Positions 19,036 through 57,700 of a stretch of 64,000 nt of DNA are shown here, one piece after another. Source of the DNA: an uncultured Ruminococcus sp. (lineage in GTDB: Bacteria > Bacillota > Clostridia > Oscillospirales > CAG-272); NCBI GenBank assembly GCA_964622425.1, contig CAZUQN010000003.1, positions 1,166-65,165 of the forward strand, written 5' to 3'. The notes beneath the pieces were generated by a model. The model ran no database searches, had not been told where the DNA came from, and worked only from the letters and a program-made list of their open reading frames with translations. Every line of letters begins with the position of its first letter. The stretch's first letter is position 1. A program made the translations under genes and the position numbers.

Positions 19036-20109
19036 TTAATCGTCGGAGTAGACAGCCGACACCGAGTAGTAATACGTTTCATCCTCGAAATAGGCGCTAA
19101 CACCGTCCTCTTCCATAAGAATATAAACGTTAATATCTCCAAGCTTATAGACGAAGAATCTTTCGGGATATTTTTCAAGGAAAATCGAAACCAAAGAAGG
19201 ATAGGTTTTTCCCGTTTCTTTGTCTAAATACAGTCTACCGTTTGCTTTATCTGATGCGTAGAACGTCATTGAGCGTAATGGACTTTCGGGATTTGTACAA
19301 TCCGGATCGATCACGCTATAGTTTATACCGAAGCTATTCATAGTATCTCTTCCGGCACCCGCGCTTATCTTAGCAGACATAGGCAAGCTCATAGAAACGT
19401 CAATGCTCGAAACAGGGTTCTCCTTCACCGTATCAAATTTTGAAGGATAGTATACAGAGTCCTTTAAGTATTGCAGGTAATCCGTAGCGATGTAGCCCGG
19501 ATTGCTTTCGTCCTCCGCAGCGTCGTAGCTCCAATACTTTATCTTGCCTACGTAATCATTATCAAGCGTTGTAAAGTTGCTCTCATCCATTCCAACGTAC
19601 GGCTCCTTGAATTCGTAGCGCTTTATGGAAAGCAACATTTCTTTAAACTCGGGATACTTATTAAGATCGTCAAGAGAATTCGGAACTACGTATCCGTGTC
19701 CCTCAAAATTGTAATCAACAACGTTATAATTAACCTTGACGGTCTTTCCCTTGTATACAAAGCTCAGTTCATTTCCGTCACCTAACTCATAGAGATAAAT
19801 TAAAAAAACAATCTCTTTCTGACTCTTTCTGCTATATGCATACGATACAACCGTGTTTTCGTGATTGCAATCGATCTTAATATCCTTGTAGGTTTCGTCG
19901 GTAATATCCTCGCCATATAGTTTTACGGTGATTTTAGTCTCAGTCGCAATTTCAAAATCAAGCGTGTCGGAGCCCGAAACACCGTCAATAGTTACCTGAA
20001 ACGCCGTGTTTCCTTTCGACCACGATTTACCAATATCTCCGCAACCGAACAGCGAAAAACACATCGTCAATACAATAACCAAAAGCAAAATTTTAGCTGT
20101 TGTTTTCAT
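19036..20109 (-). CDS. lipoprotein of unknown function
   Basis: Preferred start is the ATG at 20109, preceded by GGAGGTAAG. The N-terminus MKTTAKILLLVIVLTMCFSLFGC carries a lipobox. The track ORF extends further upstream without an SD. Confidence 0.6.
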   Translation of the reverse strand: MKTTAKILLLVIVLTMCFSLFGCGDIGKSWSKGNTAFQVTIDGVSGSDTLDFEIATETKITVKLYGEDITDETYKDIKIDCNHENTVVSYAYSRKSQKEIVFLIYLYELGDGNELSFVYKGKTVKVNYNVVDYNFEGHGYVVPNSLDDLNKYPEFKEMLLSIKRYEFKEPYVGMDESNFTTLDNDYVGKIKYWSYDAAEDESNPGYIATDYLQYLKDSVYYPSKFDTVKENPVSSIDVSMSLPMSAKISAGAGRDTMNSFGINYSVIDPDCTNPESPLRSMTFYASDKANGRLYLDKETGKTYPSLVSIFLEKYPERFFVYKLGDINVYILMEEDGVSAYFEDETYYYSVSAVYSDD

Positions 20110-20217
20110 CTTTCTTACCTCCTTTACGATTATAGTATATATCATTTTTTGATAATTGTCAATAGTTGTAAGTTCTGCCATAAACAGCAATGTTTCCAAA
20201 GCATCTCTGAACAACGC

Positions 20218-21534
20218 TTATTCTCTCTCTTCTTCATCCTCAGTACCCATAATTATGCTGTGTCCGGGCGCCCATGCATCACGGGTATATCCGCAATATA
20301 TACAACTGGAATATCGCGGAGACATTTGCTTGAATAAGTGCATTTCCGTATATTCATACCCACAACTGCAGATAGACTTATGTAATGAGTTGGATATAAT
20401 ACTGTTGGAAGCATGGTTATGAGTCTCCGTTATTAAGTCTCCCCATACACATTCATACGTATGGCTGGTTGCATTTGAAGATATTAAGGTACCGCTACTA
20501 TTATGCACGTGCTTAGGATGCAAATCACCGTAAAATTCACATGCACACGCCACTCCCCCATCTGATAATACATAGTTATTTGAGCAACCGTGTGGGATCA
20601 TAGCCTCGTTGATCTCAAACCAAAGTATCCCTATATTCATGTTATAAGGCATATCAGATAGATTTTGACAATATGCATATTCACCCGTTGTATCTCTCCA
20701 GCCTGTGTGCATAACAAAATCAACAACCTCTCCGTTTTCCTTTTTTACGTCATAAGCTATCATCCTGTGACCCGTTTTCTTCGGAAATAGTTCATTACCG
20801 GTATATCCGTCAGCATATCTTGCACCTCTATACATAACAGGAATACCACTATCCACCAACTCCGCCATTTTGCTAATTACATAATCGGATGAATGTCCAT
20901 CGTTTGTGCTTAAATAATTGATTTTTAGCGGTAATTGAGCATCGGCAGGATTATAAAAACCGTACGGATCAAAATAAGTGTAGTTACCAAAGATATCGTC
21001 AAAGTAGATATCGAGTAAAAGTCCTGTTTCATATAGACTCGCGGCGTATTCATCATTTTGAATCAAGCCATCATAATATCCCTCGTCGATTCCAATTCCT
21101 ATAAGGTCCAGGTGCAAATAGCCCGCATTTTGATACATATTAACAAAATTTATATAATACTCTTCGCGGCTTAATGTCCCACCTGAAGCCACATATTGGC
21201 TATACTGTGATGAAAAGAGATTATTCTCCGTTCTAATTGTGGAATATCCATTAATTAACGCAGAGTCTGTGTACGCTACACTCCAATCATATTGAGCATC
21301 AACAAAACTATCATTCCAATAGGTGTCGTAATAAGCGAGAAGCATGCTCATGGCAACGTAGCCACAGCTGCCAACAACGTTGTTGGGTATATTTCTCTTC
21401 AACTCAGAAAAGTATTTATCCGCGCTGGAGCTATACGTTTCTTCATCAGCAGAAGATGTCAGCACAAACACAGTTGAAACCAAAATAGAGAAAACAATGA
21501 TAATGGATATTATCTTTTTAACAGTTCTTTTCAT
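20218..21534 (-). CDS. secreted protein: possible papain-like cysteine peptidase domain plus a Cys/His-rich C-terminal region
   Basis: Start at 21534 after AAGGAGG. Signal peptide MKRTVKKIISIIIVFSILVSTVFVLTSSA. GSCGYVAMSMLLAYYD and TGHRMIAYD are candidate Cys and His sites. The C-terminus carries HxH motifs flanked by Cys. Confidence 0.4.
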   Translation of the reverse strand: MKRTVKKIISIIIVFSILVSTVFVLTSSADEETYSSSADKYFSELKRNIPNNVVGSCGYVAMSMLLAYYDTYWNDSFVDAQYDWSVAYTDSALINGYSTIRTENNLFSSQYSQYVASGGTLSREEYYINFVNMYQNAGYLHLDLIGIGIDEGYYDGLIQNDEYAASLYETGLLLDIYFDDIFGNYTYFDPYGFYNPADAQLPLKINYLSTNDGHSSDYVISKMAELVDSGIPVMYRGARYADGYTGNELFPKKTGHRMIAYDVKKENGEVVDFVMHTGWRDTTGEYAYCQNLSDMPYNMNIGILWFEINEAMIPHGCSNNYVLSDGGVACACEFYGDLHPKHVHNSSGTLISSNATSHTYECVWGDLITETHNHASNSIISNSLHKSICSCGYEYTEMHLFKQMSPRYSSCIYCGYTRDAWAPGHSIIMGTEDEEERE

Positions 21535-21714
21535 AAAGCCTCCTTGTTTTTCAATCAAATATCAAAAGAATAAAAATGTGTTTAATGACAATTCAAAAGT
21601 TGAATTCAGTCTTACTTCTGCATTGGCGTATACCTCCTCTAAAATGTCTGTTCATATATATAAATCCTTTTTCGATCAAATTCGTTACATAATAATTGTA
21701 ATGTTCACAAAGTA

Positions 21715-23703: not shown

Positions 23704-24339
23704 TTATTTAGTTCCGAAAAGGATGTCTCTGAATAGCTCGGCCGTCCTCTCGTCTCCTATTGCCTTCTTGAAGGCGTCGGTGGAAGGGCCGCCCTTTGAG
23801 AGGAGCCCTTCGACGTAAAGGCTTGCCTTTTCCTTCTTCACCTCGGGATTATCCGCAGGTCTTGCCGCATCAAGATAGGCCGCAAGATGCTCGGCCGCGA
23901 GACGGGAGAGCGCGGGTGTATCCGCCTTCTTACCCTTCTTGGATATACTCTCAGGAAGTTTTATTGAGTCATACCAATGCTCGCCTGGGTCACGCTCGGT
24001 GAGAGATGAGTATTTTGCCTTGACGTCCTCCATCGATAATCCGTCTGAGGAAAGCGTGTCATAAAGCTCAACTATGAGCGTATCGTTGCCCATAGCGAAA
24101 ATGCGGTCGTAGGAATAGAGCGGAAGGTCAACCTCGGTGGGATTAACGATAAGCGTATCCATCTTCATCAGACCGAAAAATCCCTTGGCGGTCATAACAG
24201 AAACGTGTCCAAGTCCCTCGGCGTGGTATGCGCGGATATTAAACTTCATTCCGCTTGCCTTGAGGCCCTCAACACAAGCACCGTCAATGGGTGTGATGGG
24301 ATATTTCTCCGCGATCATCAAAAGGAGTTTTTCCGTCAT
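23704..24339 (-). CDS. hypothetical protein (cytoplasmic)
   Basis: 211 aa. Its start overlaps the upstream gene's stop by 4 nt. No family is confidently recognised. Confidence 0.4.
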   Translation of the reverse strand: MTEKLLLMIAEKYPITPIDGACVEGLKASGMKFNIRAYHAEGLGHVSVMTAKGFFGLMKMDTLIVNPTEVDLPLYSYDRIFAMGNDTLIVELYDTLSSDGLSMEDVKAKYSSLTERDPGEHWYDSIKLPESISKKGKKADTPALSRLAAEHLAAYLDAARPADNPEVKKEKASLYVEGLLSKGGPSTDAFKKAIGDERTAELFRDILFGTK

Positions 24340-24974
24340 TTTGCCCTACCCGTGTTGATTTCAAGCTCGGCAAGGCCGTTCTTGTGGAGAAGATATACAC
24401 CCGCAAGAAGTGCGCCCTGACCTACTACGTTAACGCCCTCTGCAATCCAATTCATTGCCGCTTCGGCAAAGTCCTTAGAGGAAAGGTAACCCATACCGAG
24501 AGAGCAAACGAAGGATACCGCAAAGATGGCTATAAGCCACGGCTTCTTCATCTTAACTGCGATTATTGAAAGCACAGTATCGAGAATACCGAGTCCCGCA
24601 ACCATAAGACCGACGAAAACAAAGGTGCCCTTAAACAGAGGCGGAGCAACGGCAAGCGCCGCACTTCCCTTGCCCTTCTTTTCGGTCAGGAGAAGCAGAA
24701 TACCTATGCCCGCGAGGACAAAGCCTATCGACTGCACCGGGAAGAACATAGCGCTCAGCGCCTCGAAGTCGCAAGCGCCCGCCGCGTAAAGCAGCTTGTA
24801 GGTAGCCTTAAGGCCGCCCGCAAGTATAATATCGATCGTGCCCGCCGCAAAGAGAGCAAATGAGCACTTATTCATCTTGTTGTAGAGGTCACGCATCAGT
24901 ATAACCGATGCGATGGCAAAGCAGATAACAGGAATGTAATCCACAAGCGCCATAGATACAGAGAAGTCTTTCAT
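24336..24974 (-). CDS. polytopic membrane protein, unknown function
   Basis: 212 aa with several hydrophobic spans. SD AGGAG. Confidence 0.5.
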   Translation of the reverse strand: MKDFSVSMALVDYIPVICFAIASVILMRDLYNKMNKCSFALFAAGTIDIILAGGLKATYKLLYAAGACDFEALSAMFFPVQSIGFVLAGIGILLLLTEKKGKGSAALAVAPPLFKGTFVFVGLMVAGLGILDTVLSIIAVKMKKPWLIAIFAVSFVCSLGMGYLSSKDFAEAAMNWIAEGVNVVGQGALLAGVYLLHKNGLAELEINTGRAK

Positions 24975-29564: not shown

Positions 29565-30125
29565 TTATTTTTTAAATCTCAGACCGTCGGAGAATGCCTT
29601 GCCGACAACCTCTCCTATCACACGATACGTGTGGTTTGCGGAATCGTAGGTTATGGGCTTCAGCTTATCGGGATCTATCTTACCGTCGGTAAGAACCGAC
29701 TCGTCCGCAGACACGTTGACTATCTCTCCGACAAGACGGCAGCTTTCGTGATCATAGCTCTTTACAAGACACTCAAGCGCCATGGGTAACTCAAGAATTA
29801 TCGGCGCGTCAACAAGCTCGCTCTTTACGGTATGGAGGCCGCATCTGCCAAGCTTATCTACCACCTTATTTCCGCTCTCTATGCCCACGTAGTCGCACTC
29901 ACTGACGAAGTCAGCCGTCGCCATACTCACGGTAAAAGCGCCGCGAGCTGTAAAATTCTTCGTGGTTTTATGTTCCGCGCTGACGCAGACCGTGATCTCG
30001 TTTTCCTCGGTAATTCCGCCCCAAGCGGCGTTCATCGCGTTAGGTGTACCGTCCTCGCCATACGTGCCGAGAATGAACACGGGCATGGGGTAAACCATCG
30101 GTTTTACACCAAAATTCTTTCTCAT
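29565..30125 (-). CDS. flavin reductase family protein
   Basis: 186 aa. PMPVFILGTYGEDGTPNAMNAAWGG motif. Confidence 0.7.
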   Translation of the reverse strand: MRKNFGVKPMVYPMPVFILGTYGEDGTPNAMNAAWGGITEENEITVCVSAEHKTTKNFTARGAFTVSMATADFVSECDYVGIESGNKVVDKLGRCGLHTVKSELVDAPIILELPMALECLVKSYDHESCRLVGEIVNVSADESVLTDGKIDPDKLKPITYDSANHTYRVIGEVVGKAFSDGLRFKK

Positions 30126-30538
30126 AATACTTCTCCTTGATCAAATTCTTCTCTGCCCCACCAATCGGGCATAAGCTCGCCGAGGGTCACCGTCGTTTTC
30201 TTTTCTATATCGGTCAGTATTTCAATCTCACAGCTTCTCGGCGAAAGCTGCATCATAAGCTCTCGGCAAGCTCCGCAGGGTGAGCCTACACTGCCGTCGG
30301 TCATTACCGCGACGACCTTATCTATCTCACTCTCTCCGTTAGTTATCATATTCGCGATAGCGTTTCTCTCGGCACACATACCGAGCGAGCAGGCGGTATC
30401 TATACAGACACCGACGTATATGTTACCGCTCTTTGAGAGTATAGCCGCGGCAACGCCTCCCGCATCAACGAAGGGGGATATTCTCCTCCCCCTTTGTACC
30501 TCGAGCGCCCTTTCGTAAAGTGTATCCCAAATGCTCAT
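30122..30538 (-). CDS. cdd: cytidine deaminase
   Basis: 138 aa. Zinc motifs CAERNAI and PCGACRE. Confidence 0.85.
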   Translation of the reverse strand: MSIWDTLYERALEVQRGRRISPFVDAGGVAAAILSKSGNIYVGVCIDTACSLGMCAERNAIANMITNGESEIDKVVAVMTDGSVGSPCGACRELMMQLSPRSCEIEILTDIEKKTTVTLGELMPDWWGREEFDQGEVL

Positions 30539-30550
30539 AATATTCCTTTC

Positions 30551-30580
30551 AAAAAAGGCGCACGCGGCGCCTTTTTATTT
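30551..30580. terminator. bidirectional hairpin ending the BMC operon
   Basis: aaaaAAGGCGCacgcgGCGCCTTtttatttt. On the minus strand the stem is followed by TTTTTT. Confidence 0.6.
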
Positions 30581-30607
30581 TTGTTTCACAGTTAGCCTGA
30601 ATACCCC

Positions 30608-30916
30608 TTAGAGAAGGTGTACGGGAAGCTCAGCTCCGAGTCCGTAGCGCACGAATCCGTCGGGATGAGTATCCGTCTCAGCCTCAGCCTTCTTTGTCTC
30701 GGGCTTCTTTATGTGGGGCTTCTTCTCCTTAAGCGCGGTATTCTTCTTAGGCTCAGCCTTTACGGTAGCAACCTTCTTAGTCTCTTTCTTTACCTCGGGC
30801 TTTACCTCTGTCTCGGGCTCTGTAACCACACTGTGCTCCATATCGGGAGCGGAGGTATTCACCTTGGAATAACCGTTATTCGTTACTCTCTTAAGAGCAT
30901 TCTTACCTACCGGCAT
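30608..30916 (-). CDS. small Lys/Glu/Pro-rich, probably disordered protein; candidate ParA partner (McdB-like by architecture only)
   Basis: 102 aa with about 18 Lys. Basic N-terminus MPVGKNALKR, a central KPEVKKETKK-type low-complexity stretch and a hydrophobic C-terminus. The start overlaps the parA stop by 14 nt. Confidence 0.5.
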   Translation of the reverse strand: MPVGKNALKRVTNNGYSKVNTSAPDMEHSVVTEPETEVKPEVKKETKKVATVKAEPKKNTALKEKKPHIKKPETKKAEAETDTHPDGFVRYGLGAELPVHLL

Positions 30917-31694
30917 ATCCGATTATCTCCTTTGCAAGCTTAGTATATTCAATAGCGCTGCGGCTGTATCTCTTGTACGCAACGACGGGCTGGCTGTTGT
31001 CCTGCGCCCACTCTATTGAGGAATCGATTCTGATGTATGTGTTAAAGAGTCTTGCCGCTTCAAACTCCTTGAGTGTCTCATAGGTCTGCTTGAAGTAGCT
31101 CTTTCTCTCGTCTGCCTTGGTGATGGCAATGCCCATTACCTCAAGATGGGGATTGAGATTCTTCACCTGCGAGATGAAGTCAAACATATTCGCAAGGCCG
31201 AAAAGTCCCCACGGGCTTGCCTCAACGGGAATTATGATGAAGTCGCTGACGGTGAGAATGTTCATCACCCAACCGCCGAGTGTCGGAGGTGCGTCGATGA
31301 GAATGAAGTCGTAGTAGCCGCGCGCAAGAATCGGCGAGAGGCACTTCTTGAGGATAAACTCTCTCTGCCACTTGGTAAAGAGGTCGTACTCGATAGAGCT
31401 CATCAGAGAGGACGAGGGAATGATGTCGAGATTCGGATACTGAGTCTCGACGACAAAGTCGGAAAGATCCTTCTCATCCTTCACCGCGGTATGTATATTT
31501 TTCTCCTCGGTAGCAAAGCCGAGAGCTCTGTCCTCATCAAAGAAGGACAGCGTGAGGTTAAGCTGCATATCTCCGTCTATAAGTAATACACGCTTACCCG
31601 CCTTTACCATAGCGAGACCTACGTTGGAGCAAGTTGTGGTCTTGCCGCTTCCGCCCTTGTTATTGGCGAAGGCTATAACAGTCGTTCTGCTCAT
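30903..31694 (-). CDS. ParA/MinD-family ATPase
   Basis: 263 aa. Deviant Walker A NNKGGSGKTTT. The start overlaps the eutP stop by 4 nt. No ParB-like HTH gene is nearby. Confidence 0.85.
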   Translation of the reverse strand: MSRTTVIAFANNKGGSGKTTTCSNVGLAMVKAGKRVLLIDGDMQLNLTLSFFDEDRALGFATEEKNIHTAVKDEKDLSDFVVETQYPNLDIIPSSSLMSSIEYDLFTKWQREFILKKCLSPILARGYYDFILIDAPPTLGGWVMNILTVSDFIIIPVEASPWGLFGLANMFDFISQVKNLNPHLEVMGIAITKADERKSYFKQTYETLKEFEAARLFNTYIRIDSSIEWAQDNSQPVVAYKRYSRSAIEYTKLAKEIIGYAGR

Positions 31695-32143
31695 TGTTCT
31701 GTTTTCTCCTTCCTGTCATCCTCGCTGAGATAGTCGAGGAGCTTGTCTATACCCTCTCCGGTCATGGCACTCAAGGGGAAAATCTTCTTACAGCCCGCAA
31801 GCCTTAACCATCTCTCAACACGCTCGACGTTGGCGTCCGGCTTATCTATACCGGAAATTATGCCCACGACCTCACGGTTGACAAGACTGGTAATGCAGGG
31901 CGAGAAGATAGAATACGGCTCGTTGGCGCTAAGCACAAGACCGACAATGTCAGCCTCGTATGCATAGAGAGCGAGCGCTCCGCTCGTTTGTCTGAGCTCG
32001 GTGTATTCTCCGGGGGTATCTATAATGGTGTCCATATAGTTCACGTACTGCGTCTTGAAGTACTTGATCTCTTCACCCTTTAGCGCCTGAGTCAGTGTGG
32101 TCTTGCCTGCCGCAACCCTGCCTATCAGTATTATCTTTTTCAT
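31691..32143 (-). CDS. eutP: EutP/PduV family BMC-associated GTPase
   Basis: 150 aa. MKKIILIGRVAAGKTTL P-loop and the typical EutP length. Confidence 0.85.
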   Translation of the reverse strand: MKKIILIGRVAAGKTTLTQALKGEEIKYFKTQYVNYMDTIIDTPGEYTELRQTSGALALYAYEADIVGLVLSANEPYSIFSPCITSLVNREVVGIISGIDKPDANVERVERWLRLAGCKKIFPLSAMTGEGIDKLLDYLSEDDRKEKTEQ

Positions 32144-44350: not shown

Positions 44351-45541
44351 TTACTTAGTTGCGAGCGCGAGGGTGTCAAGAGCGATCATATATTCCTCGT
44401 TGGTGGGAATAACGAAGGTTCTTACGCTTGCGCCGGGAGCGGTGATCTCGAGGATCTCGCCGCGAGGACCGTTCATATTGAGCTCCTCGTCGATCTTAAT
44501 GCCAAGATAGGACATATCGCGGCATACGTTCTGGCGCAGAGTCTTGTTGTTCTCGCCGATACCTGCGGTGAATACGAGCGCGTCAACGCCGTTCATCTCA
44601 GCAACGTAGGAGCCAATGATCTTCTTGATATTGTGGGTGAGGATCTCGTTTGTAAGAGCCGCTCTTCTGTTTCCTGCCTCAGCAGCCGCGTCGATATCTC
44701 TGCAGTCGCTGGATACGCCGGAAACGCCGAGAAGACCGGACTTGGAGTTAAGGAGCTTCTCAACCTCAGCAGGGGTGAGTCCTTCCTTCTTCATAATATA
44801 AGGAACAACGGTGGGGTCGATAGCGCCGCATCTGGTACCCATGGGCACGCCGTCGTTGGGAGTGAAGCCCATGGAGGTGTCAACTGCCTTGCCGTTTACG
44901 GTAGCGGTGATAGAGGAGCCGTTACCAAGGTGGCAGGTGATGATCTTCGCGTCCTTGTTGCCGATAAGCTTACACGCCTCAGCACATACGAATCTGTGAG
45001 AGGTGCCGTGGAAGCCGTAGCGGCGGATCTTATGCTTTTCGTAAAGCTCGTAAGGAAGGGGGTAAATGAATGCCTTCTCTTCCATAGAGGAATAGTAAGA
45101 GGTGTCGAATACACCAACGTGTACAACGTCGGGCATAACTGCCTTACAGCCCTTGAATCCGCTGATTGCAGGCGGACCGTGGAGGGGGTTGATCTCAACG
45201 ATGCTCTCAAGATATGCGAGCTTCTCGTCGTCGAGAATAGAGGACTGACGGATCTCTCCGCCGTGAGCAAATCTGTGGCCTACCGCGCCGATCTCGTCAG
45301 CACTTGCTACAACGCCGAGCTCAGGGTCGGTGAGAAGTGAGAGCACGAGCTCGATCGCAGCCTTGTGATCCTTAAGCTCGGTTTCACGGGAGTAGTCTTC
45401 CTTGCCGGGACGCTTGTGAGTGATCTTGCCGTCAATGCCGATTCTCTCGCAAAGGCCCTTAGCAAGCACCTCGCCCGTCTCCATATCAAAGAGCTGATAC
45501 TTAAGGGAGGACGAGCCTGCGTTTACAACTAAAATTTTCAT
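44351..45541 (-). CDS. ackA: acetate/propionate kinase
   Basis: 396 aa. MKILVVNAGSSSLKYQLF start. Confidence 0.9.
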   Translation of the reverse strand: MKILVVNAGSSSLKYQLFDMETGEVLAKGLCERIGIDGKITHKRPGKEDYSRETELKDHKAAIELVLSLLTDPELGVVASADEIGAVGHRFAHGGEIRQSSILDDEKLAYLESIVEINPLHGPPAISGFKGCKAVMPDVVHVGVFDTSYYSSMEEKAFIYPLPYELYEKHKIRRYGFHGTSHRFVCAEACKLIGNKDAKIITCHLGNGSSITATVNGKAVDTSMGFTPNDGVPMGTRCGAIDPTVVPYIMKKEGLTPAEVEKLLNSKSGLLGVSGVSSDCRDIDAAAEAGNRRAALTNEILTHNIKKIIGSYVAEMNGVDALVFTAGIGENNKTLRQNVCRDMSYLGIKIDEELNMNGPRGEILEITAPGASVRTFVIPTNEEYMIALDTLALATK

Positions 45542-45743: not shown

Positions 45744-46583
45744 TCAATCTACGATACGCTTCGCTTTTAGCTCCGCCTCCTCCTGCACTACCGCCTGCGC
45801 TCTCTCCGCATTCTCGTAAACGATCTTGTAGCAGAGTGCGTCGATAACGACGAGTCTCGCGAGGTGGGAATTCAGACCGAGGGTTGAGTGCCTCGTCTCC
45901 TCGGTATCGGTCAGGAGCACGATCTCCGACAGCCTTGCTATCGGTGACTTCTCGCGCGAGGTGATAGCTATCGTCCGCGCTCCGCGCGACCTCGCCACCT
46001 TCATCGACTCAACGATGTCCTTTGACGCGCCCGACTGCGATATGCCGATGACCGTGTCACCCGGCCTCAGCTGGGAGACCGCGATAGCCTGCATATGCGT
46101 ATCTGCATACGCCACAGAGTTACAACCTGCCCTGAGTAGCTTGTTGCTCGCCTCCGCCGCAACCTGCGCAGATGCGCCAAGTCCGATGAGCACTACCCTG
46201 CCCGCGCCCGCAATCGCCTTCACCGCGGCAGTCATAGCCTCGGGCGAGAGTGTCTTCTTCGTCCTCTCGAGCGACATGTAAGCGTCGTTGCAGACCTTCT
46301 CGAATATGCTGAAGCAGTCGTCCGACGCCGTGATGGTCGGAGCGATAACCTTCTTGTCGTGCTCTCTCGCCAGAGCGATCTTCAGATCCTGGTATCCCGA
46401 GCATCCGAGTCTCTTGGAGAATCGGACTATCGTTGCCTCGCTGCTCTCACACATGGAGGCAAGGTCTGTTATGGAATACGGAAGGATCTCTCCCGAGTGG
46501 GAGAATAACCAATCAGCGACTCTCTTCTCGGACTTGCCCATGTCATTGTACAAGAGCTGCGCCTGAAGTAGGGTCCTGTTCAA
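45744..46583 (-). CDS. MurR/RpiR family transcriptional regulator (HTH + SIS domain)
   Basis: 279 aa, TTG start 7 nt after AGGAGG. N-terminal HTH (SEKRVADWLF, TDLASMCESSEATIVRF) and a SIS domain. Confidence 0.85.
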   Translation of the reverse strand: MNRTLLQAQLLYNDMGKSEKRVADWLFSHSGEILPYSITDLASMCESSEATIVRFSKRLGCSGYQDLKIALAREHDKKVIAPTITASDDCFSIFEKVCNDAYMSLERTKKTLSPEAMTAAVKAIAGAGRVVLIGLGASAQVAAEASNKLLRAGCNSVAYADTHMQAIAVSQLRPGDTVIGISQSGASKDIVESMKVARSRGARTIAITSREKSPIARLSEIVLLTDTEETRHSTLGLNSHLARLVVIDALCYKIVYENAERAQAVVQEEAELKAKRIVD

Positions 46584-51758: not shown

Positions 51759-54700
51759 TTACGGGGTTACCATTCCCACTTCGTTATCCGTGAGCCACTG
51801 GTCGGTCGCGATTGTCAAGTCATCCTTTTTAATCGTGATTGAACCGCCAACGCTAACCTCAACATCTACTGTTGTAATAACAGAATCAAGATTACCATAT
51901 CTCCAAGACCACTTCTTGTCGAACGTAACAGTATACTGACCTATTGCAACGTCAGTAACAGTAAGAGCTACGCCGTCAACAACCGCAACGGTGAAGGTCT
52001 TGCCTTCTGCGAAGGTACCTGCAACACCGGTAAAGGTAAGGATAAAGCTGTCACTCTGTCCGCTTGTAATCTTAATTTCGAGATCAGCCGAGCGAGGAAG
52101 GAAGAGTGCGTAGTAGGTTGCGGAAATGTAGAGATTACCTTCCTGCTCATCACCATTATCATCCTCATAAGTGAACTGGGTCTTGGTGGGAATCAAGTGG
52201 CTATACTCTCCAATGGTCACTGGGTCAACATTAGTATCAATAGGAGTCGTGCACTCTGCATCCTTGAACCAACCGGCAAAATAATATGTCTCAGACTCAT
52301 AAGGAATAGAGCCCACAGGTGTATCATCAGAACCGGAATTAATGTTTTCACGCGTCATTGACAAACCAACGTCGCTTCCATCAATATCGTCACAAACGAT
52401 CTCGTAGATAAATGTCGACTCAGATTTCTGATAGTAGAAAATAATCACGTTACGAGATTCGTCAATATAGAGTGTAAGCGATCTCTGTGTAGACTGATCT
52501 ACAAGGTCACAACCCTTGTTGTTAACGATCTCCATATGCTTCTGCTTGTCAAGATCAACGGTGACAAGGTGTCCATGCTGAACTCCAGACGCGTCTGCTG
52601 CAACCTCATAAGAGTAATATTCCTCACCGCTATCAACATCCACGTACTTAACAGTATATCCAACAGTAACGCGATCATAGTACAGATTTATCTCTAAACC
52701 GTATTCAGTAATCGTATAACCGAATTTTTCTTCATCCATGTTGATGTGCTCAAGATCGCCCTGTGGAATAACTACACTCTCAACTACACCCGAAGTCTCA
52801 TCTTGCCTACGTGTCTCAGCATCTGCCTTTGAGAAACTGTATCCGGTAATGTCAGTCAAAACAGTTCCAAACACTATGTTTCCATCGCCGCCCTGAATAA
52901 TCTCAAAGGTGCCCGACTGATAAGAATAAACCGAATATGTTCCATCGACGTTCTGTATCAAATGATTTACAACCCAAGGAGCTGTTATGGGTGCATCAGC
53001 TTCGTTCTTGGTGTAATAGAAGGTAATAACGTTATTTGTCGCTTGATCGGTAGATGAAAGAATCAAGGACTTTGAATAAGCGTCAACTGTATAACCCGTA
53101 ATAGGTACAAATAGCTCAGTGACCGCGGCTTTTCTCGTTTTGCCCTCATAGGTTGCGGGATAGTTTGGATCGGTAGAGTCAAATACTTCTCGTGTTTCGT
53201 TATCAACGTATTTTACCCAATAACTTACCTCTTCAACCTCGTCATAAACGAAGTTGTACTCATTAACAAGAATGTTTCCATCTCCATCCTTTTCAAACTT
53301 CATCTGAACAGTATGGCTTCCTACCTGAGGGAAATAGCCCTCTTGGTAATCAGCATAAAGATCAGCTCCTGCCAAAGCACGGAAGGTTTTGTTCTGACCG
53401 GCAAGCGCGCTTCCCAGCATGGAATTACCGATCTGCACGTATACTGGCTCGTCATTTTCATCAACAACCAGCTGACCGTTCTCATCCTTTTGTTGAGTTA
53501 CAAAATTAATCTTGTAGTTAACCGTCTGCTCGGAAATCCACTTAGCATAGATAACCATATCCTGAGTGATTGGGAAGTTGAAGAGAAATGCTTTTTCTTC
53601 ATTTGTTTCGGGATCTACGTAGAACCAACCATTGAAAGTATAGTTAAGGTCCTTCTTGTATGCAGACTGCGTATAATCAGGCTCTACAGCATAGTATCTA
53701 TGTCCAACATACTGATCACCGTAGTTATCCTCACTAAACTGTGTGGTAAATGTAGCATCATCATACACTTTGACATGTCTAGTGACAGGGGTCCAAATAG
53801 CATAAAGGTTAAGCTCGCCGTCAGGAAGCGTGTCCGTCTCCCAGTCTACCATTGTATACTCACTTTGATACTCAGTAGTGTACCAACCTGCAAAAACGTA
53901 TGCTCCGACCTCAAGCTGACTAGGATATGGTACATTATTAATGTCAAAGTTACCATATGTTTCACTACTTTTCAGCACGGCAGCGAAGTCGCCCAATGAA
54001 GCACCGTATTTTAGAGGATTAGACTCCCCTGCTTGGGGTATGGTAATCAGGCTATTTCCGGCATTGAATATGTTAACCTTGAGATTTGAACTGTTTCTGT
54101 CGTAGAAGTACACATATCGGGTTACATTCTCAACGTCCAACACATTTATGCCTTCTGTTTTTTCAGGGTTAGTCTCTGTTCCTGTGACGGTATGAATATT
54201 CATACCGTGGATACTCTTTATTCCTTCTTTTTCTAGCTGAGCAAGAGCATCAATTACTCCGTCTCCATCGGAATCCGTGGCATCTAATGCGATAAATTGC
54301 ATATGTGTAGAATCTGCATCGTACCACTTTCCATCGAATTCCTTTCTTCCGTTTCCGTTTTCATCGTAAGGAATTTCGCCACTTTCTATATCAAAGCTCT
54401 CAAACATATAGTAGAGAATATATGGAACAATATTGCTCGAATACTGAGCGACCGTCCTGATTCCTGCAGAATAGCAAAGTTCAGTAACCATCGTTATGTG
54501 TTTAACGTAACGATCTATCGCTTTACTTGTATCCGTACCAGTACTATCATATTTCCAATATGTAAAATATGCTCCTTCATCATTTTGTTGAAGCCCAAGC
54601 GTATTTAGCTCAATGAAATACGGAACATATGCAGTAATATCCTGACCATATTTGGCCTGAAGTATTCTTATTGTTTGATAATAATCTTCCGGCTTAGCTT

Positions 54701-57700
54701 CAGCTTTTTGTTCGTCAGATAGGTTGTTATATACTTCCGAATAAGTAGTATCATTGGTATGCTGATGTTCTGGCTTCATACAGAGATAGCCATAACAATC
54801 TATGGTGTGTTCATGGGTGCATAAGCAATAATCTGTATGCTCGTGCTCCGCTTTTCCGCAACCATAGCAACCTTCGGCATCTGTATGCGTGTGCTCATAA
54901 CCAACAGTACAGACTTCACTGTTACATCCACCGGTGTGGTCGTGGTCAGGGGCATTTTCAGGACAAGTATCTGCCTCAATAATGACTGGGTTGGTTGAAT
55001 AATCCACATCAGGATCATAAGCATCATAATAGTACCATTGACCATTGATATAGATGGTGGGAACATCCATATATATGGTACCTGATATAATTCCCGTGCG
55101 GCTACTATACGGCACTGCTAAATCGTTCAATACATATACATATCCATTTTGAAGATTTTGAGGCGGAGCTTCCTTTTGAACAGCCGTAGCAGCTTCCGCG
55201 GCCTTTTCAGATGCAGTATCGTTAACAATGGTATTAAGTATGCCCGAAATAAGATCTCCTCCCCAAGAGAAGTTCTTCTTAATGTCAGCCTCAACTAAAG
55301 GGGAAGCGGCAGAACCAATTGAAGTTGCCATATCTGAATCAACGGAATAACAACCTGCATCGTGCACGTGCACGCCACAACATTCTGGTCCATGTATGTG
55401 CTCAGTTTTACTACAATTCTTGCATCCTGCAACATGTGTGTGTTCTTCAATGGAGCAAGAGCCCGAAGTATTGCAAGCGGAGGTATGCACGTGTTTACAA
55501 TAGAAGGGGTTGTACTCACAAGTACCGTCACCATGAAAATGTTCGTCAAGTTTGCAACCCGACTTAAGCGTATCCGCAACAAAAGTGATCTGATAGTAAC
55601 GACGATTAAAGAACACGTTAACCGTGGAGGAACCATCACCCTTAATAACAACGCCATCAGGAGAATCCTTAACCATTTCCTCATACGTCAACGATGTATT
55701 AAGCGTTGTATACTGATAATCCTCATCCCCGGTTACTACATCATCAATTGGAACTGGATTATCCCCATCATACTTTATGTACGTTCCTGATGTAGCGGTC
55801 TTCGGTACTGTATGCCAGATACTGTAGTTACCGTCATTGGGGTTTTCGAGCCAGTAAACCATATTATAATTTACTATCTCTTCACTCCAATTTGCCTTGT
55901 AAGTAACATTACAAATTATCTTGACTTTGTTTTCTTTACCTGCTGTTAAGTATTCATATCCGGCAGCGGGATCATCACAATCGACTACCTCCCACCCAAC
56001 AAATCCGTAACCTGCACAAATTGCATCGTTAATACCGACCTCATATCCATACGGAACATAAAGGTTCTCCTGTCCATATGCACCGTCTTCAACCATATCG
56101 AAGAGAACGGTGTAATACTCTCTATCGTAACGAACTTCAATGACTGTGCTACCGTCCGCAGCGATCTCAGTAGGTTCATAATAGAGGTGGCGGAAACCGG
56201 TAATATCAATCTCACAACCACTAACAGGGGAATCAACCGTACCGGACCCTTCGGTAACCGGTTGAGCCTCATATGCTACATAATTGTCATCATATACGTT
56301 CTTAATAAAGTGGTATATTTTGTATTTAGCCTTACCGGGATAATAATAAACGTTTACCGTATAGTCTGCGGTATATCCGGCGTCAATTGAAACAGTCGTA
56401 AGAGAATCATCCGAATCCGGATTCTGTGAAAAATCATAAGGATTAGAGGGTTCCGTCATGCTCGGGTAATATCCGAGAACAGAAGGAATATTAACCGTAT
56501 ACGCCTCATAATCGGTCTTTAAGGTACGGATATCGGGATAAGTTGCTTGAACCTGTGTTCCGTCAGGGCGTACCTTAATGAAGTTGACGGTTAGAGTGAT
56601 ACGCTCGGTAGACGTATCTCCATCCGCATAAGCCTTTGCGCTGTGTACAATGTATTCCTCGTTAGCAGTGGTAATATTCTCGTACTCAGGCTCCATGGGT
56701 TTAGGAGCGTAAACCGTCTTAATAGTGATGGGCAGAGATCTGTACTCAGTCTCACCATCATATGCCACTGCGCGAATCTTTGTCTTGTTATTTTCATCAA
56801 GGACATTCTTTACGAGAGCATAGGTGACGTAACATACATCGGTCACCTTGTCGTATATTCTAGCCCAAGTGTTATTTTCTGCATCAACAAGGATTTCCCA
56901 TCCCCATTCAACGTCACCGGTAAGTCTCTCCGTCTTTGCAGCTTCAAGAAGCATTTTACCGTCTTCATAAAGCGTGATTATGTCAGTTTCCTGTCCACGA
57001 TAGGTTATGGAAACAGGAGAAACGTACTCCTCGGTGATAATGAGATCGTAATAAGGATCGATGTATCTATACTGATCGTATATCATCGGCCAATCCACAT
57101 TGGTCGCATATACGTAAGTATCATCTTTATGAATTCGCTTAACGATTACTTCCTCGGGGAAGTTCTTAGTAGATACCTCGGGCTCAACGTCCTCATCTCC
57201 GTAGCCATACTCCTCGAATATAGCACTTTCTGAAGGCTCAGCAGGTCTATACGGTGCTAAACCTGTTTCTGTTTCACCAAGATTCCAGACTGCAGTGTAT
57301 TCCTTGCCAAGCTCCATTTCATCGACTGATAATCCTCCGTCTATCAGGAGCTTATCTGCATCAATATACCTATAGTCATCATAGCCTGCAGGCCAATCGA
57401 GGTTAGTTGTGTAAACAAGGTTGAAATCTCTTACACTGTTACGGATAACCGTTACACTCTCAGGAAGAAGTTCTTCGTTAATGACCTCTCCAAGTGCATC
57501 ATACGTATTAATAAAATTAAATCTCGCATAAGGCCAGAAGGTATCCGATACCCACTTCGCCGAATAGAGCTTACCGACCTCCATATCGGAGACGGAGAGT
57601 CCGGTTTCCTCATCGGTGCTATCGAGCGCTATCGCGGGGACCACGCCGATAGGCAATATATAGAACACTGTCACAAGCGCCAGAAGGAGCGAAAGTATTC

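What the first reader, a model, noticed from the sequence alone, without database searches (positions are those of the whole stretch)
30608..31694. ParA ATPase plus a Lys-rich disordered protein translationally coupled to the end of the BMC operon: candidate microcompartment positioning system
The parA start overlaps the eutP stop (ATGA). The 102-aa gene start overlaps the parA stop by 14 nt. A terminator follows at 30551-30580. Both genes therefore belong to the BMC transcription unit. There is no ParB-like HTH protein. The partner is small, about 18 percent Lys, low-complexity (KPEVKKETKK...), with a basic N-terminus and a short hydrophobic C-terminus. That architecture resembles the McdA/McdB pairs that space carboxysomes. 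As far as I recall, McdAB-like pairs near non-carboxysome BMC loci have been noted bioinformatically, but none has been characterised for a glycyl-radical BMC.
Basis: partly seen in the sequence, partly recalled or inferred. Interest (0 to 1): 0.6.

Follow-up and report, generated by a model that had tools for sequence, protein, structure and literature searches.

The report
Microcompartment-linked ParA ATPase with disordered adaptor
The last two genes of a glycyl-radical microcompartment operon encode a ParA-type ATPase and a small disordered partner protein, always found together at this locus in uncultured gut Clostridia. They are most likely a carboxysome-style (McdAB-like) system that spaces these protein organelles in the cell, an idea already raised in the literature but never tested.

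Summary
eutP/pduV, a 263-aa ParA gene and a 102-aa Lys-rich ORF lie in series on the minus strand. They share ATGA and 14-nt overlaps, and a terminator follows.

The small ORF is a real gene. It has 266 representative clusters in public data and codon-level purifying selection. It has a near-invariant 29-aa basic N-terminus, a variable K/A/P/E/T linker predicted to be disordered, and a C-terminus ending [LM]-P-x-[Y/H/W/F]-L-L. In all 56 related loci examined it directly follows this ParA, and wherever the contig extends further the same GRM5-like locus lies upstream. No ParB, parS-like repeats or plasmid context were found.

This architecture matches the McdB-like rules: charged N-terminus, disorder, and a C-terminal aromatic with nearby acidic residues. 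There is no detectable homology to McdB. The ParA is Soj-like (29-33% identity) and keeps the signature lysine. However, an invariant Glu sits where Soj has its key DNA-binding Arg/Lys, so using the nucleoid as track is inferred, not shown.

The best reading is an McdAB-like positioning module for this microcompartment. McdAB-like pairs near GRM and PDU loci were already noted bioinformatically (2021, 2024), so this is a well-defined new member of a known kind. Interest is moderate.

The parts
31691..32143 (-). EutP/PduV-family small GTPase-like gene. It lies immediately upstream and its stop overlaps the parA start (ATGA at 31691-31694).
   Evidence: PF10662 6e-52, TIGR02528 2e-43; sequence. 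The eutP-parA junction is not conserved in relatives, where gaps range from 0 to about 175 nt.
30903..31694 (-). ParA/Soj-type deviant Walker A ATPase, 263 aa (called BMC-ParA here).
   Evidence: AAA_31 2.5e-52. Best PDB sequence hits are M. xanthus ParA 8RAY (3.5e-29) and H. pylori Soj (1.2e-28). The AF2 model has pTM 0.80, and the top Foldseek hits are Soj/ParA. All complete copies checked are exactly 263 aa: 19/19 genome loci and the complete metagenome copies.
31638..31661 (-). Deviant Walker A motif NKGGSGKT (residues 12-19), with the signature lysine K13.
   Evidence: Read from the translation. G14, G15, S16, G17 and K18 are invariant and K13 is at least 90% conserved in family alignment A3.
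30999..31031 (-). ParA residues 222-232 (RIDSSIEWAQD). This replaces the Soj nsDNA-binding motif P-[RK]-x-V-[RK]-L-S-E. E228 is invariant where HpSoj has K230 and MxParA has R238.
   Evidence: MAFFT alignment of 46 BMC-ParAs with 8RAY and HpSoj. The HpSoj DNA-contact residues come from PMC6393308.
30927..30932 (-). Shine-Dalgarno AAGGAG, 10 nt upstream of the small ORF's ATG and inside the parA coding sequence.
   Evidence: Sequence. The sequence gcaaaggaga is conserved upstream of the start in the 19 genome loci.
30608..30916 (-). Small 102-aa intrinsically disordered Lys-rich protein, the putative cargo adaptor. It overlaps the parA 3' end by 14 nt (30903-30916).
30830..30916 (-). N-terminal conserved motif, residues 1-29 (MPVGKNALKRVTNNGYSKVNTSAPDMEHS). 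Inferred to be the ParA-binding, ATPase-activating peptide.
   Evidence: Near-invariant in 150 representative clusters: M1, G4 and R10 in 150/150, K5 in 146, K9 in 145. Synonymous codon variation occurs at the invariant residues. Its role is inferred by analogy with the N-terminal peptides of ParB, McdB and PomX.
30665..30829 (-). Low-complexity K/E/P/T/V/A linker, residues 30-84. Net charge +4 (counted over residues 30-84). Its length varies across the family (total protein length 72-202 aa).
   Evidence: AF2 predicts no secondary structure and pTM 0.12. The coding repeats are families D1-D3.
30611..30664 (-). C-terminal conserved motif, residues 85-102 (PDGFVRYGLGAELPVHLL-COOH). Inferred to be the shell/cargo-binding peptide.
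   Evidence: 145 of 150 representatives end in [LM]-P-x-[Y95/H35/W9/F6]-L-L. G at -9 occurs in 144 and D/E at -7 in 111. Synonymous variation at the invariant P and L residues.
30552..30576 (-). Intrinsic terminator-like hairpin (GGCGC...GCGCC) flanked by A and T runs, 32 nt after the small ORF's stop codon.

Best explanation
This is a dedicated two-protein positioning module of the ParA/MinD type for the glycyl-radical (GRM5-like, fucose/rhamnose-type) microcompartment. It is analogous to the McdAB system of carboxysomes. The module is co-transcribed with the organelle genes and translated in a fixed ratio through the overlapping parA/adaptor junction, so it is made only when microcompartments are made.

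The proposed mechanism has three parts. First, the ParA binds ATP and forms a sandwich dimer using its signature lysine, then sits on an extended cellular matrix. The nucleoid is the default expectation. Second, the small disordered protein acts as the adaptor. Its near-invariant basic N-terminal peptide (G-K-N-[AS]-[IL]-K-R-V...) docks on the ParA dimer and stimulates ATP hydrolysis. Its C-terminal peptide ([DE]-[LM]-P-x-[Y/H/W/F]-L-L-COOH) attaches it to the shell surface. Third, many adaptors on each organelle locally deplete ParA-ATP, so organelles move up ParA gradients, repel each other, stay dispersed and are shared between daughter cells.

What is shown: gene structure, strict linkage to the GRM locus, conservation and selection of the two terminal motifs, predicted disorder, the ParA fold and its intact ATPase motifs.

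What is inferred: the ParA-adaptor interaction, which terminus binds which partner, shell binding, the identity of the matrix, and the positioning phenotype.
For: (1) Linkage. In 19 of 19 species-level genomes and 37 of 37 metagenome contigs that encode the small protein, ParA lies directly upstream with overlapping reading frames. The 14-nt overlap is identical in 19 of 19 and 29 of 37 loci. Every contig that extends further shows EutP, BMC, GRE activase, GRE, BMC-T, PduS, EutN, PduL and BMC-H in the same order. No locus of another BMC type and no BMC-free locus was found.

(2) The downstream genes change between lineages while the pair stays with the BMC operon.

(3) The adaptor family comprises 266 representative clusters. 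Every listed hit starts at residue 1 and is 72-202 aa long. The terminal motifs are conserved at protein level over synonymous codon change, the linker varies in length, and AF2 finds no fold.

(4) The family fits the published McdB-like criteria: charged N-terminus, disorder with biased composition, a C-terminal aromatic within the last four residues, and nearby acidic residues (PMC8359340, PMC11321042).

(5) The N-terminal motif has the hydrophobic-basic-hydrophobic character of ParA-activating peptides.

(6) The ParA has an intact deviant Walker A with signature Lys, plus A' and B motifs. The Walker-B-proximal loop that forms the ParB-peptide pocket in M. xanthus ParA is conserved here but with family-specific residues (L139, G140, G141, W142, V143, M144).

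(7) There is no ParB, no parS-like repeats, and the context is chromosomal housekeeping genes.
Against: No experiment exists for this or any metabolosome-associated ParA pair. The small protein shows no detectable sequence similarity to McdB or to any solved structure. The window's own protein has His, not Trp, Tyr or Phe, at position -3. The ParA is closer to chromosomal Soj/ParA than to the one 'McdA' in the PDB, and that protein is itself not regarded as a true McdA. Three of the four DNA-contact lysines of HpSoj are non-basic in this ParA family, including an invariant Glu at the position whose charge reversal abolishes DNA binding in other ParAs. Nucleoid binding therefore cannot be assumed. 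Complex modelling could not be run. The assignment of the N-terminus to ParA and the C-terminus to the shell rests on analogy only.
Confidence: 0.6

Rival explanations
1. The pair serves the microcompartment but does not work as a classical ParA-on-nucleoid ratchet. In this reading the adaptor's polybasic linker supplies DNA or other matrix contact, through H1-like AKKP repeats and, in some members, AT-hooks. The ParA lacks the Soj DNA-contact residues and instead regulates tethering and release or adaptor clustering.
For: E228 is invariant where Soj/ParA carry the key DNA-binding Arg/Lys. S225 and Y/N/T243 replace two further HpSoj DNA-contact lysines. AT-hook cores such as KKRGRPAKK and RGRGRPRK occur in 11-12 of 150 representative adaptors and in L016. 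In 64 of 150 representatives there are at least 3 H1-like tetrapeptides. Median linker net charge is +8.
Against: The window's own adaptor has no AT-hook or H1-like repeat, and its linker net charge is only +4. K202, the equivalent of HpSoj K199, is kept, as are nearby K241, R242 and R245. DNA-binding residues are not conserved or predictable even among McdA-like proteins that do bind DNA (PMC6582323). The alignment register around residues 222-232 is ambiguous between two alignments.
Confidence: 0.15
2. The pair functions in microcompartment biogenesis rather than positioning. The disordered Lys-rich protein would be a scaffold or condensate-forming assembly factor carrying a C-terminal encapsulation-like peptide, and the ParA-like ATPase would control its assembly state.
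For: The small protein is a disordered polyampholyte with a conserved hydrophobic C-terminal peptide. Disordered scaffolds and terminal targeting peptides are common in BMC assembly (established knowledge; one search lists recent work on encapsulation-peptide condensates). The pair is expressed from within the structural operon.
Against: No ParA/MinD ATPase is known to act as a BMC assembly chaperone. The C-terminal motif contains an invariant Pro and AF2 models almost no helix there, unlike amphipathic-helix encapsulation peptides. The published description of canonical GRM5 loci lists no ParA among their ancillary genes, so the pair appears to be an accessory add-on, not a core assembly factor.
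Confidence: 0.1
3. This is a DNA partition cassette of the small type Ib kind: a small ParA plus a small non-HTH centromere-binding protein with a flexible N-terminal activating tail. It would merely sit next to the BMC operon, for example as a remnant of a mobile element that carried the locus.
For: The ParA is most similar to DNA-segregation ParA/Soj and to the PHROG 'ParA-like partition protein' family. The partner is small, has a basic N-terminus, and in some members carries AT-hooks.
Against: The position inside the BMC transcription unit is invariant in 56 of 56 loci across ParA identities from 54% to 99%. No iterons or parS-like repeats lie nearby. The flanks are chromosomal housekeeping genes on contigs of up to 444 kb. 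There is no folded DNA-binding domain. The canonical ParA DNA-contact residues are missing.
Confidence: 0.05

Closest known systems
McdAB (maintenance of carboxysome distribution; alpha-McdAB of proteobacteria and beta-McdAB types 1 and 2 of cyanobacteria)
   Same: A ParA-type ATPase gene is followed directly by a small, disordered, compositionally biased partner, encoded in or beside a BMC operon. The partner has a charged N-terminus and a conserved aromatic residue within the last four residues, with acidic residues nearby. The ParA keeps the signature lysine, as in alpha-McdA and beta-McdA type 2. Like alpha-McdB, the partner is predicted to be almost fully disordered with no coiled coil.
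   Different: The cargo is a catabolic glycyl-radical metabolosome in Clostridia, not a carboxysome. No sequence homology to McdB was detected. The aromatic residue is mostly Tyr or His (His in this window) and Trp in only 9 of 150 representatives, and it sits in a fixed [LM]-P-x-Ar-L-L-COOH motif. The N-terminal motif is 29 residues long and near-invariant. The linker is Lys/Ala/Pro-rich rather than Gln-rich. The ParA has Glu at the Soj DNA-binding Arg/Lys position.
Putative McdAB-like pairs near PDU/GRM/EUT operons (MacCready et al. 2021, Fig. 8f; Basalla et al. 2024, Fig. 4)
   Same: The same idea, and possibly the same protein family. Those partners are described as having Tyr or Phe conserved within the last 4-5 residues and as being encoded in or next to PDU or GRM operons.
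   Different: Their sequences are shown only in figures that are not held as text, and the searchable supplement lists none, so identity with this family could not be checked. Those papers give no family-wide definition, distribution or ParA analysis, and no experiments on the native proteins.
Chromosomal ParABS (Soj/ParA with Spo0J/ParB)
   Same: These are the closest ParA relatives by sequence and fold (29-33% identity). The concept of a partner N-terminal peptide with a central Arg/Lys flanked by hydrophobic residues binding at the dimer interface is shared.
   Different: There is no ParB (no HTH or CTPase domain) and no parS. The Soj DNA-contact motif P-[RK]-x-V-[RK]-L-S-E is replaced by an acidic sequence. 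The partner is a 100-aa disordered protein.
Type Ib plasmid partition systems (ParF/ParG of TP228, delta/omega of pSM19035)
   Same: A small ParA without an N-terminal extension is paired with a small partner whose flexible N-terminal tail activates the ATPase.
   Different: Those partners have a folded ribbon-helix-helix DNA-binding domain and bind iterons. Here there is no fold, no iterons and no plasmid context.
PduV/EutP-based microcompartment movement (Parsons et al. 2010, as cited in PMC8262871)
   Same: A PduV/EutP gene lies directly upstream and, in this window, is translationally coupled. PduV is the only other NTPase proposed to position metabolosomes.
   Different: It belongs to a different NTPase family and its mechanism is unknown. 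The eutP-parA coupling is not conserved in relatives.

Membership tests
ParA/MinD (deviant Walker A) ATPases | Deviant Walker A motif KGGxxGK[ST] with a signature lysine, plus Walker A' and B motifs | tested here: met
   NNKGGSGKTT (K13, K18), LLIDGDMQ, and FILIDAPP. These are invariant or at least 90% conserved in the family. AAA_31 2.5e-52 and CbiA 2.5e-18.
ParA/MinD (deviant Walker A) ATPases | ParA/Soj fold | tested here: met
   The AF2 model has pTM 0.80. Foldseek top hits are Soj 9A6N, MxParA 8RAY, HpSoj and TtSoj, with TM-scores of about 0.66-0.81 and E-values down to 9e-18.
Chromosomal Soj/ParA (ParABS) | Basic nsDNA-contact residues (HpSoj K199, K227, K230, K247; MxParA R238) | tested here: not met
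   Only K202, the equivalent of K199, is kept. K227 is replaced by S225 (44 S, 2 A). K230/R238 is replaced by E228 (46 of 46). K247 is replaced by Y, N, T or S. The alternative ungapped register also gives non-basic residues.
Chromosomal Soj/ParA (ParABS) | A cognate ParB (HTH/CTPase) and parS nearby | tested here: not met
   No ParB-like domain among the ORFs scanned between about 23.7 and 50 kb. No repeat arrays.
McdA (carboxysome positioning ATPase) | A ParA-type ATPase encoded next to a small mcdB-like gene in or beside a BMC operon | tested here: met
   56 of 56 loci. However, the BMC is a GRM, not a carboxysome.
McdA (carboxysome positioning ATPase) | Specific sequence relationship to bona fide alpha- or beta-McdA clades | not testable with these tools
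   No true McdA sequence or model was available. The PDB 'McdA' 6NON scores 54 bits against 105 bits for Soj-type ParA, and the field regards it as plasmid-type.
McdA (carboxysome positioning ATPase) | ATP-dependent non-specific DNA binding and stimulation by the partner | not testable with these tools
   This needs biochemistry. The sequence gives mixed signals.
McdB / McdB-like adaptors | Charged N-terminal region when encoded next to mcdA | tested here: met
   K5, K9, R10 and K18. R10 is present in 150 of 150 representatives.
McdB / McdB-like adaptors | Intrinsic disorder and biased, low-hydrophobicity composition | tested here: met
   AF2 models almost no secondary structure (one 3-residue helical turn near the C-terminus), with pTM 0.12. 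The linker is K 23%, A 18%, P 11%, E 10.5% and T 9.6%.
McdB / McdB-like adaptors | Invariant C-terminal tryptophan (the rule for carboxysome McdB) | tested here: not met
   Position -3 is His in the window. Family-wide it is Y 95, H 35, W 9 and F 6 of 145.
McdB / McdB-like adaptors | C-terminal aromatic (Tyr or Phe) within the last 4-5 residues, with nearby acidic residues (the rule for non-carboxysome McdB-like proteins) | tested here: inconclusive
   Family-wide the rule is met: 145 of 150 have an aromatic residue or His at -3, and D/E at -7 occurs in 111. The window's protein has His, which the published rule does not list.
McdB / McdB-like adaptors | Detectable sequence homology to known McdB | tested here: not met
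   No Pfam, NCBIfam or PHROG hit. A profile search against PDB sequences, which include the Cyanothece McdB-like protein, gave only a chance hit at E = 0.61.
McdB / McdB-like adaptors | Binds the BMC shell, binds McdA, and forms condensates | not testable with these tools
Experiments are needed.
GRM5-type glycyl-radical microcompartment locus | GRE plus activase, class II aldolase, PduS, AldDH, PduL, and BMC-H, BMC-T and BMC-P shell genes | tested here: met
   The regulator is RpiR-type rather than the DeoR-type described for GRM5 in PMC4207490.

The most novel reading that the evidence does not exclude
The roles in this ParA system are partly swapped compared with McdAB and ParABS. The ATPase has lost the canonical nucleoid-binding surface, with an invariant Glu at the Soj Arg/Lys position. 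The disordered cargo adaptor carries the DNA contact in its polybasic linker, through H1-like repeats and in some members bona fide AT-hooks. If so, microcompartments would be tethered to the nucleoid by the adaptor itself, and the ParA would act as an ATP-driven regulator of tether release or adaptor clustering. That would be a previously undescribed way of using a ParA/MinD ATPase to organise a protein organelle.
Probability: 0.12. Interest if true: 0.8.

Novelty: new member of a known kind. Interest (0 to 1): 0.5.

Why it matters
How catabolic microcompartments are spaced and inherited is essentially unknown. The only characterised BMC positioning system is McdAB of carboxysomes, and the 2021-2025 literature lists metabolosome-associated ParA pairs as an open question.

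This locus offers a compact, sharply defined test case. It has a 263-aa ParA and a roughly 100-aa adaptor reduced to two short conserved peptides joined by a disordered linker. The pair is strictly tied to one microcompartment type in gut and rumen Clostridia.

The two peptides are ready-made reagents for three purposes: finding the shell docking site, testing whether C-terminal aromatic motifs are a general shell address label, and engineering the positioning or tethering of synthetic microcompartments. The unusual ParA DNA-binding region and the AT-hooks in some adaptors could reveal a variation on the ParA gradient mechanism.

Tried and rejected
(1) I tried AF2 of a fused ParA-(G4S)6-adaptor chain to see which adaptor end docks on ParA.

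(2) P0153 (357 aa) looked like a possible natural ParA-adaptor fusion. It is a ParA with an internal duplication, so it was of no use.

(3) Pfam, NCBIfam, PHROGs and a profile search of PDB sequences with the small protein gave nothing.

(4) I searched the supplement of Basalla 2024 for the GRM McdB-like sequences. Nothing was held, so I could not decide whether this family is the one shown in their Fig. 4.

(5) A repeat search for parS or iteron-like arrays around the pair found only coding repeats inside the Lys-rich linker.

(6) My own strict hairpin search downstream of the small ORF across loci found terminator-like sites in 21 of 43. This is an undercount: it misses the window-type hairpin whose stem absorbs the T-run. 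It was used only as weak support.

(7) I considered an Fe-S carrier (Mrp/NBP35-like) or CooC-like maturation role for the ParA. I rejected it because there is no CxxC motif and the best matches are partition ParAs.

(8) I considered membrane targeting of the MinD/FlhG type. I rejected it because there is no C-terminal amphipathic extension: the protein ends right after the last core helix.

(9) I considered a covariation or mirror-tree test to assign each adaptor terminus to a partner. I did not run it, because about 46 closely related sequences would be dominated by phylogeny.
Full report
**Observation**

On the minus strand, a EutP/PduV gene (31691-32143; PF10662 6e-52) is followed by a 263-aa ParA-type ATPase (30903-31694; AAA_31 2.5e-52). 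A 102-aa ORF (30608-30916) comes next and matches no Pfam, NCBIfam or PHROG family.

- The eutP stop and parA start share ATGA at 31691-31694.
- The parA stop codon (30903-30905) lies 14 nt inside the small ORF.
- The small ORF has its own AAGGAG Shine-Dalgarno 10 nt upstream of its ATG.
- A GC-rich hairpin flanked by A and T runs (30552-30576) follows.
- The small protein is 17.6% Lys with net charge +5.

Upstream lies a complete glycyl-radical microcompartment operon: RpiR regulator, acetate kinase, class II aldolase, AldDH, ADH, four BMC-H, PduL, EutN, PduS, BMC-T, GRE, activase and one more BMC-domain protein. This is a GRM5-like locus of the fucose/rhamnose type. The wider window holds chromosomal housekeeping genes: purine biosynthesis, glutamine synthetase and formate-THF ligase. 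The ORFs scanned with Pfam include no ParB-like protein.

**The small ORF is a real, conserved gene**

It has 167 homologues at 90% clustering. A profile search of 1.84 billion representative proteins found 266 clusters at E <= 1e-3. All listed hits are small (72-202 aa) and match from residue 1.

The family has a very clear three-part anatomy:

- **N-terminus.** 29 near-invariant residues, M-P-[IV]-G-K-N-[AS]-[IL]-K-R-V-x-N-N-G-Y-S-x-V-x-[TS]-x-A-P-D-M-E-N-S. M1, G4 and R10 occur in 150 of 150 representatives.
- **Linker.** Variable in length, with composition K 23%, A 18%, P 11%, E 10.5% and T 9.6%, and median net charge +8.
- **C-terminus.** G at -9, D/E at -7, then [LM]-P-x-[aromatic]-L-L-COOH in 145 of 150 representatives. 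Position -3 is Tyr in 95, His in 35, Trp in 9 and Phe in 6.

Across 57 genes, the invariant residues are encoded by up to six synonymous codons. Examples are the terminal Leu-Leu, Pro at -5, and G15, S17, A23 and R10. Selection is therefore on the protein, and it extends well beyond the 14 nt shared with parA. AF2 with the family alignment models almost no secondary structure (pTM 0.12). The protein is best described as two short linear motifs joined by a disordered spacer.

**Linkage to the microcompartment**

A scan of one genome per species (GTDB) found the small protein in 19 genomes. All are uncultured Clostridia/Eubacteriales from animal guts. In all 19 the gene order GRE - activase - BMC - EutP - ParA - small ORF is the same, ParA is exactly 263 aa, and the 14-nt overlap is conserved.

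A metagenome scan with a broader alignment gave 37 more loci:

- The ParA C-terminus is directly upstream in 37 of 37.
- The overlap is identical in 29 of 37. In the other eight the ParA frame runs on past that stop (tail ...RK), so the frames still overlap.
- Every contig long enough carries the same GRM genes.
- Independent gene calls on two further contigs show the same arrangement.

ParA identity to the window falls to 54% and adaptor identity to about 31%. Shell proteins stay at about 76-100% and the GRE at 81-98%. The genes downstream of the pair change between lineages. The eutP-parA junction is not conserved, with gaps of 0 to about 175 nt.

No locus of another BMC type and no BMC-free locus was seen. 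No iteron or parS-like repeats lie near the pair; the only repeats found are coding repeats in the linker.

**The ParA**

It has the deviant Walker A with signature lysine (NNKGGSGKTT) and intact A' and B motifs. By sequence, its nearest solved relatives are chromosomal ParA/Soj: M. xanthus 8RAY at 3.5e-29 and H. pylori Soj at 1.2e-28, with 29-32% identity. The Cyanothece 'McdA' 6NON scores only 1.5e-13. The AF2 model (pTM 0.80) gives the same ranking by Foldseek: Soj 9A6N, 8RAY, HpSoj and TtSoj first, then 6NON. The McdAB authors themselves regard 6NON as a plasmid-type protein rather than a true McdA. No bona fide McdA was therefore available for comparison.

Two features stand out:

- The Walker-B-proximal loop forms the ParB-peptide pocket in M. 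xanthus ParA (L150, G151, L152, L155). Here it is conserved but carries family-specific residues: L139, G140, G141, W142, V143, M144. This fits a partner-binding pocket in the usual place with its own specificity. That is an inference.
- Three of the four lysines with which HpSoj contacts DNA are not basic here. K227 corresponds to Ser. K230, which equals MxParA R238, corresponds to an invariant Glu in 46 of 46 sequences. K247 corresponds to Tyr, Asn or Thr. Only K199 (K202 here) is kept.

The alignment register in this segment differs between HMMER's alignment to 8RAY and the MAFFT alignment, but neither places a basic residue at the two key positions. This does not prove loss of DNA binding. 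DNA-binding residues are not conserved or predictable even in McdA-like proteins that do bind DNA. It does mean the nucleoid-as-track step is only inferred.

**What it most likely is**

The arrangement fits the published description of McdAB-like systems. A ParA-type ATPase gene is followed by a small, disordered, compositionally biased protein in a BMC operon. The small protein has a charged N-terminus and a conserved aromatic residue within the last four residues, flanked by acidic residues.

By analogy with ParB, McdB and other ATPase-activating partners, I assign the N-terminal basic peptide to ParA binding and activation. I assign the C-terminal aromatic motif to shell binding. A C-terminal Trp, Tyr or Phe mediates carboxysome binding of McdB. 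Family members here use Y, H, W or F at one fixed position. This assignment of the two ends is inferred, and I could not model the complex.

I put 0.6 on an McdAB-like positioning and anti-aggregation function. The rivals are:

- 0.15 on a BMC-related function with a non-classical mechanism, in which the adaptor rather than the ATPase contacts DNA.
- 0.10 on a biogenesis or scaffold role.
- 0.05 on a hitch-hiking DNA partition cassette.
- The remainder is unassigned.

**Relation to what is known, and novelty**

ParA genes in BMC loci were noted in 2014. McdA/McdB-like pairs near PDU, GRM and other operons were reported bioinformatically in 2021 and 2024, with the C-terminal Tyr/Phe rule. A 2025 review still lists them as untested.

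This analysis adds five things:

- a sharp definition of the adaptor family, with two motifs and 266 clusters;
- its strict, exclusive linkage to one GRM locus type in gut Clostridia;
- proof of selection on the small ORF;
- the Soj-like affinity of the ATPase, with an altered DNA-contact segment;
- AT-hook motifs in about 8% of adaptor representatives, though not in the window's own protein.

I could not establish whether this family is the same as the 'GRM McdB-like' proteins shown in Basalla et al. Fig. 4.

It is not a member of the McdB family by homology. It also fails the invariant-Trp rule of carboxysome McdBs. It works like, or is built like, an McdB. I file it as a new member of the known kind 'ParA-type BMC positioning systems', with a modest chance (about 0.12) of being a mechanistic variant.

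**Verdict**

Interest is moderate (0.5). A specialist would not be surprised by the concept. The family is nevertheless a clean, minimal and untested entry point into how metabolosomes are positioned.

Noticed in passing
Family members P0242, P0244, P0295, P0297, P0339, P0345, P0348, P0351, P0368, P0379; L016:10001-10612: Canonical AT-hook cores (KKRGRPAKK, RGRGRPRK, KRGRKPR, RRRGRPPK) occur in the linker of 11-12 of 150 representative adaptors. In 64 of 150 there are at least 3 histone-H1-like [AP]KK[AP] tetrapeptides. The window's own protein has neither. This suggests DNA contact by the adaptor in part of the family.
   Followed up: partly
window 30999-31031 (ParA residues 222-232): The Soj nsDNA-binding motif P-[RK]-x-V-[RK]-L-S-E is replaced by RIDSSIEWAQD. 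E228 is invariant in 46 of 46 family members at the position of HpSoj K230 / MxParA R238.
   Followed up: partly
P0153 (357 aa, ENA contig of 1816 nt): A ParA homologue with an internal tandem duplication of roughly residues 40-135. It may be an assembly artefact or a real duplication. It is not a ParA-adaptor fusion.
   Followed up: yes
L018:18399-19145 (minus strand): A second ParA-like ORF, 35% identical to the BMC-ParA, lies about 8 kb downstream of the pair in an Oscillospiraceae MAG. It may be the chromosomal or another cargo ParA.
   Followed up: no
L025, L029, L030, L037, L041, L044, L048 and one more of the 37 metagenome loci: In 8 of 37 metagenome loci the ParA reading frame runs past the usual stop (tail ...RK instead of ...R*). 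The overlap with the adaptor gene is therefore longer than 14 nt.
   Followed up: partly
window 30122-30607: The cytidine-deaminase-like gene (30122-30538) starts 13 nt after the terminator's T-run, with only 69 nt between it and the small ORF. Its promoter must lie inside the small ORF, or it depends on read-through. This gene and the flavin reductase (29565-30125) follow the pair only in the closer relatives.
   Followed up: partly
window 45744-46583 and 44351-45541: The GRM locus has an RpiR-family (HTH_6 + SIS) regulator and an acetate kinase. The GRM5 description in the 2014 BMC taxonomy lists a DeoR regulator instead.
   Followed up: no
window 51759-57710 (minus strand): A 1983-aa ORF whose only Pfam signal is a single weak Listeria-Bacteroides repeat. 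It is probably a large surface protein.
   Followed up: no
window 19036-21558 and 23704-24974 (minus strand): Four sizeable ORFs (392, 446, 211 and 212 aa) have no Pfam match.
   Followed up: no
window 30669-30819: Short direct DNA repeats (families D1-D3) lie inside the small ORF. They are the coding repeats of the K-P-E-x-K-K linker, not regulatory sites.
   Followed up: yes
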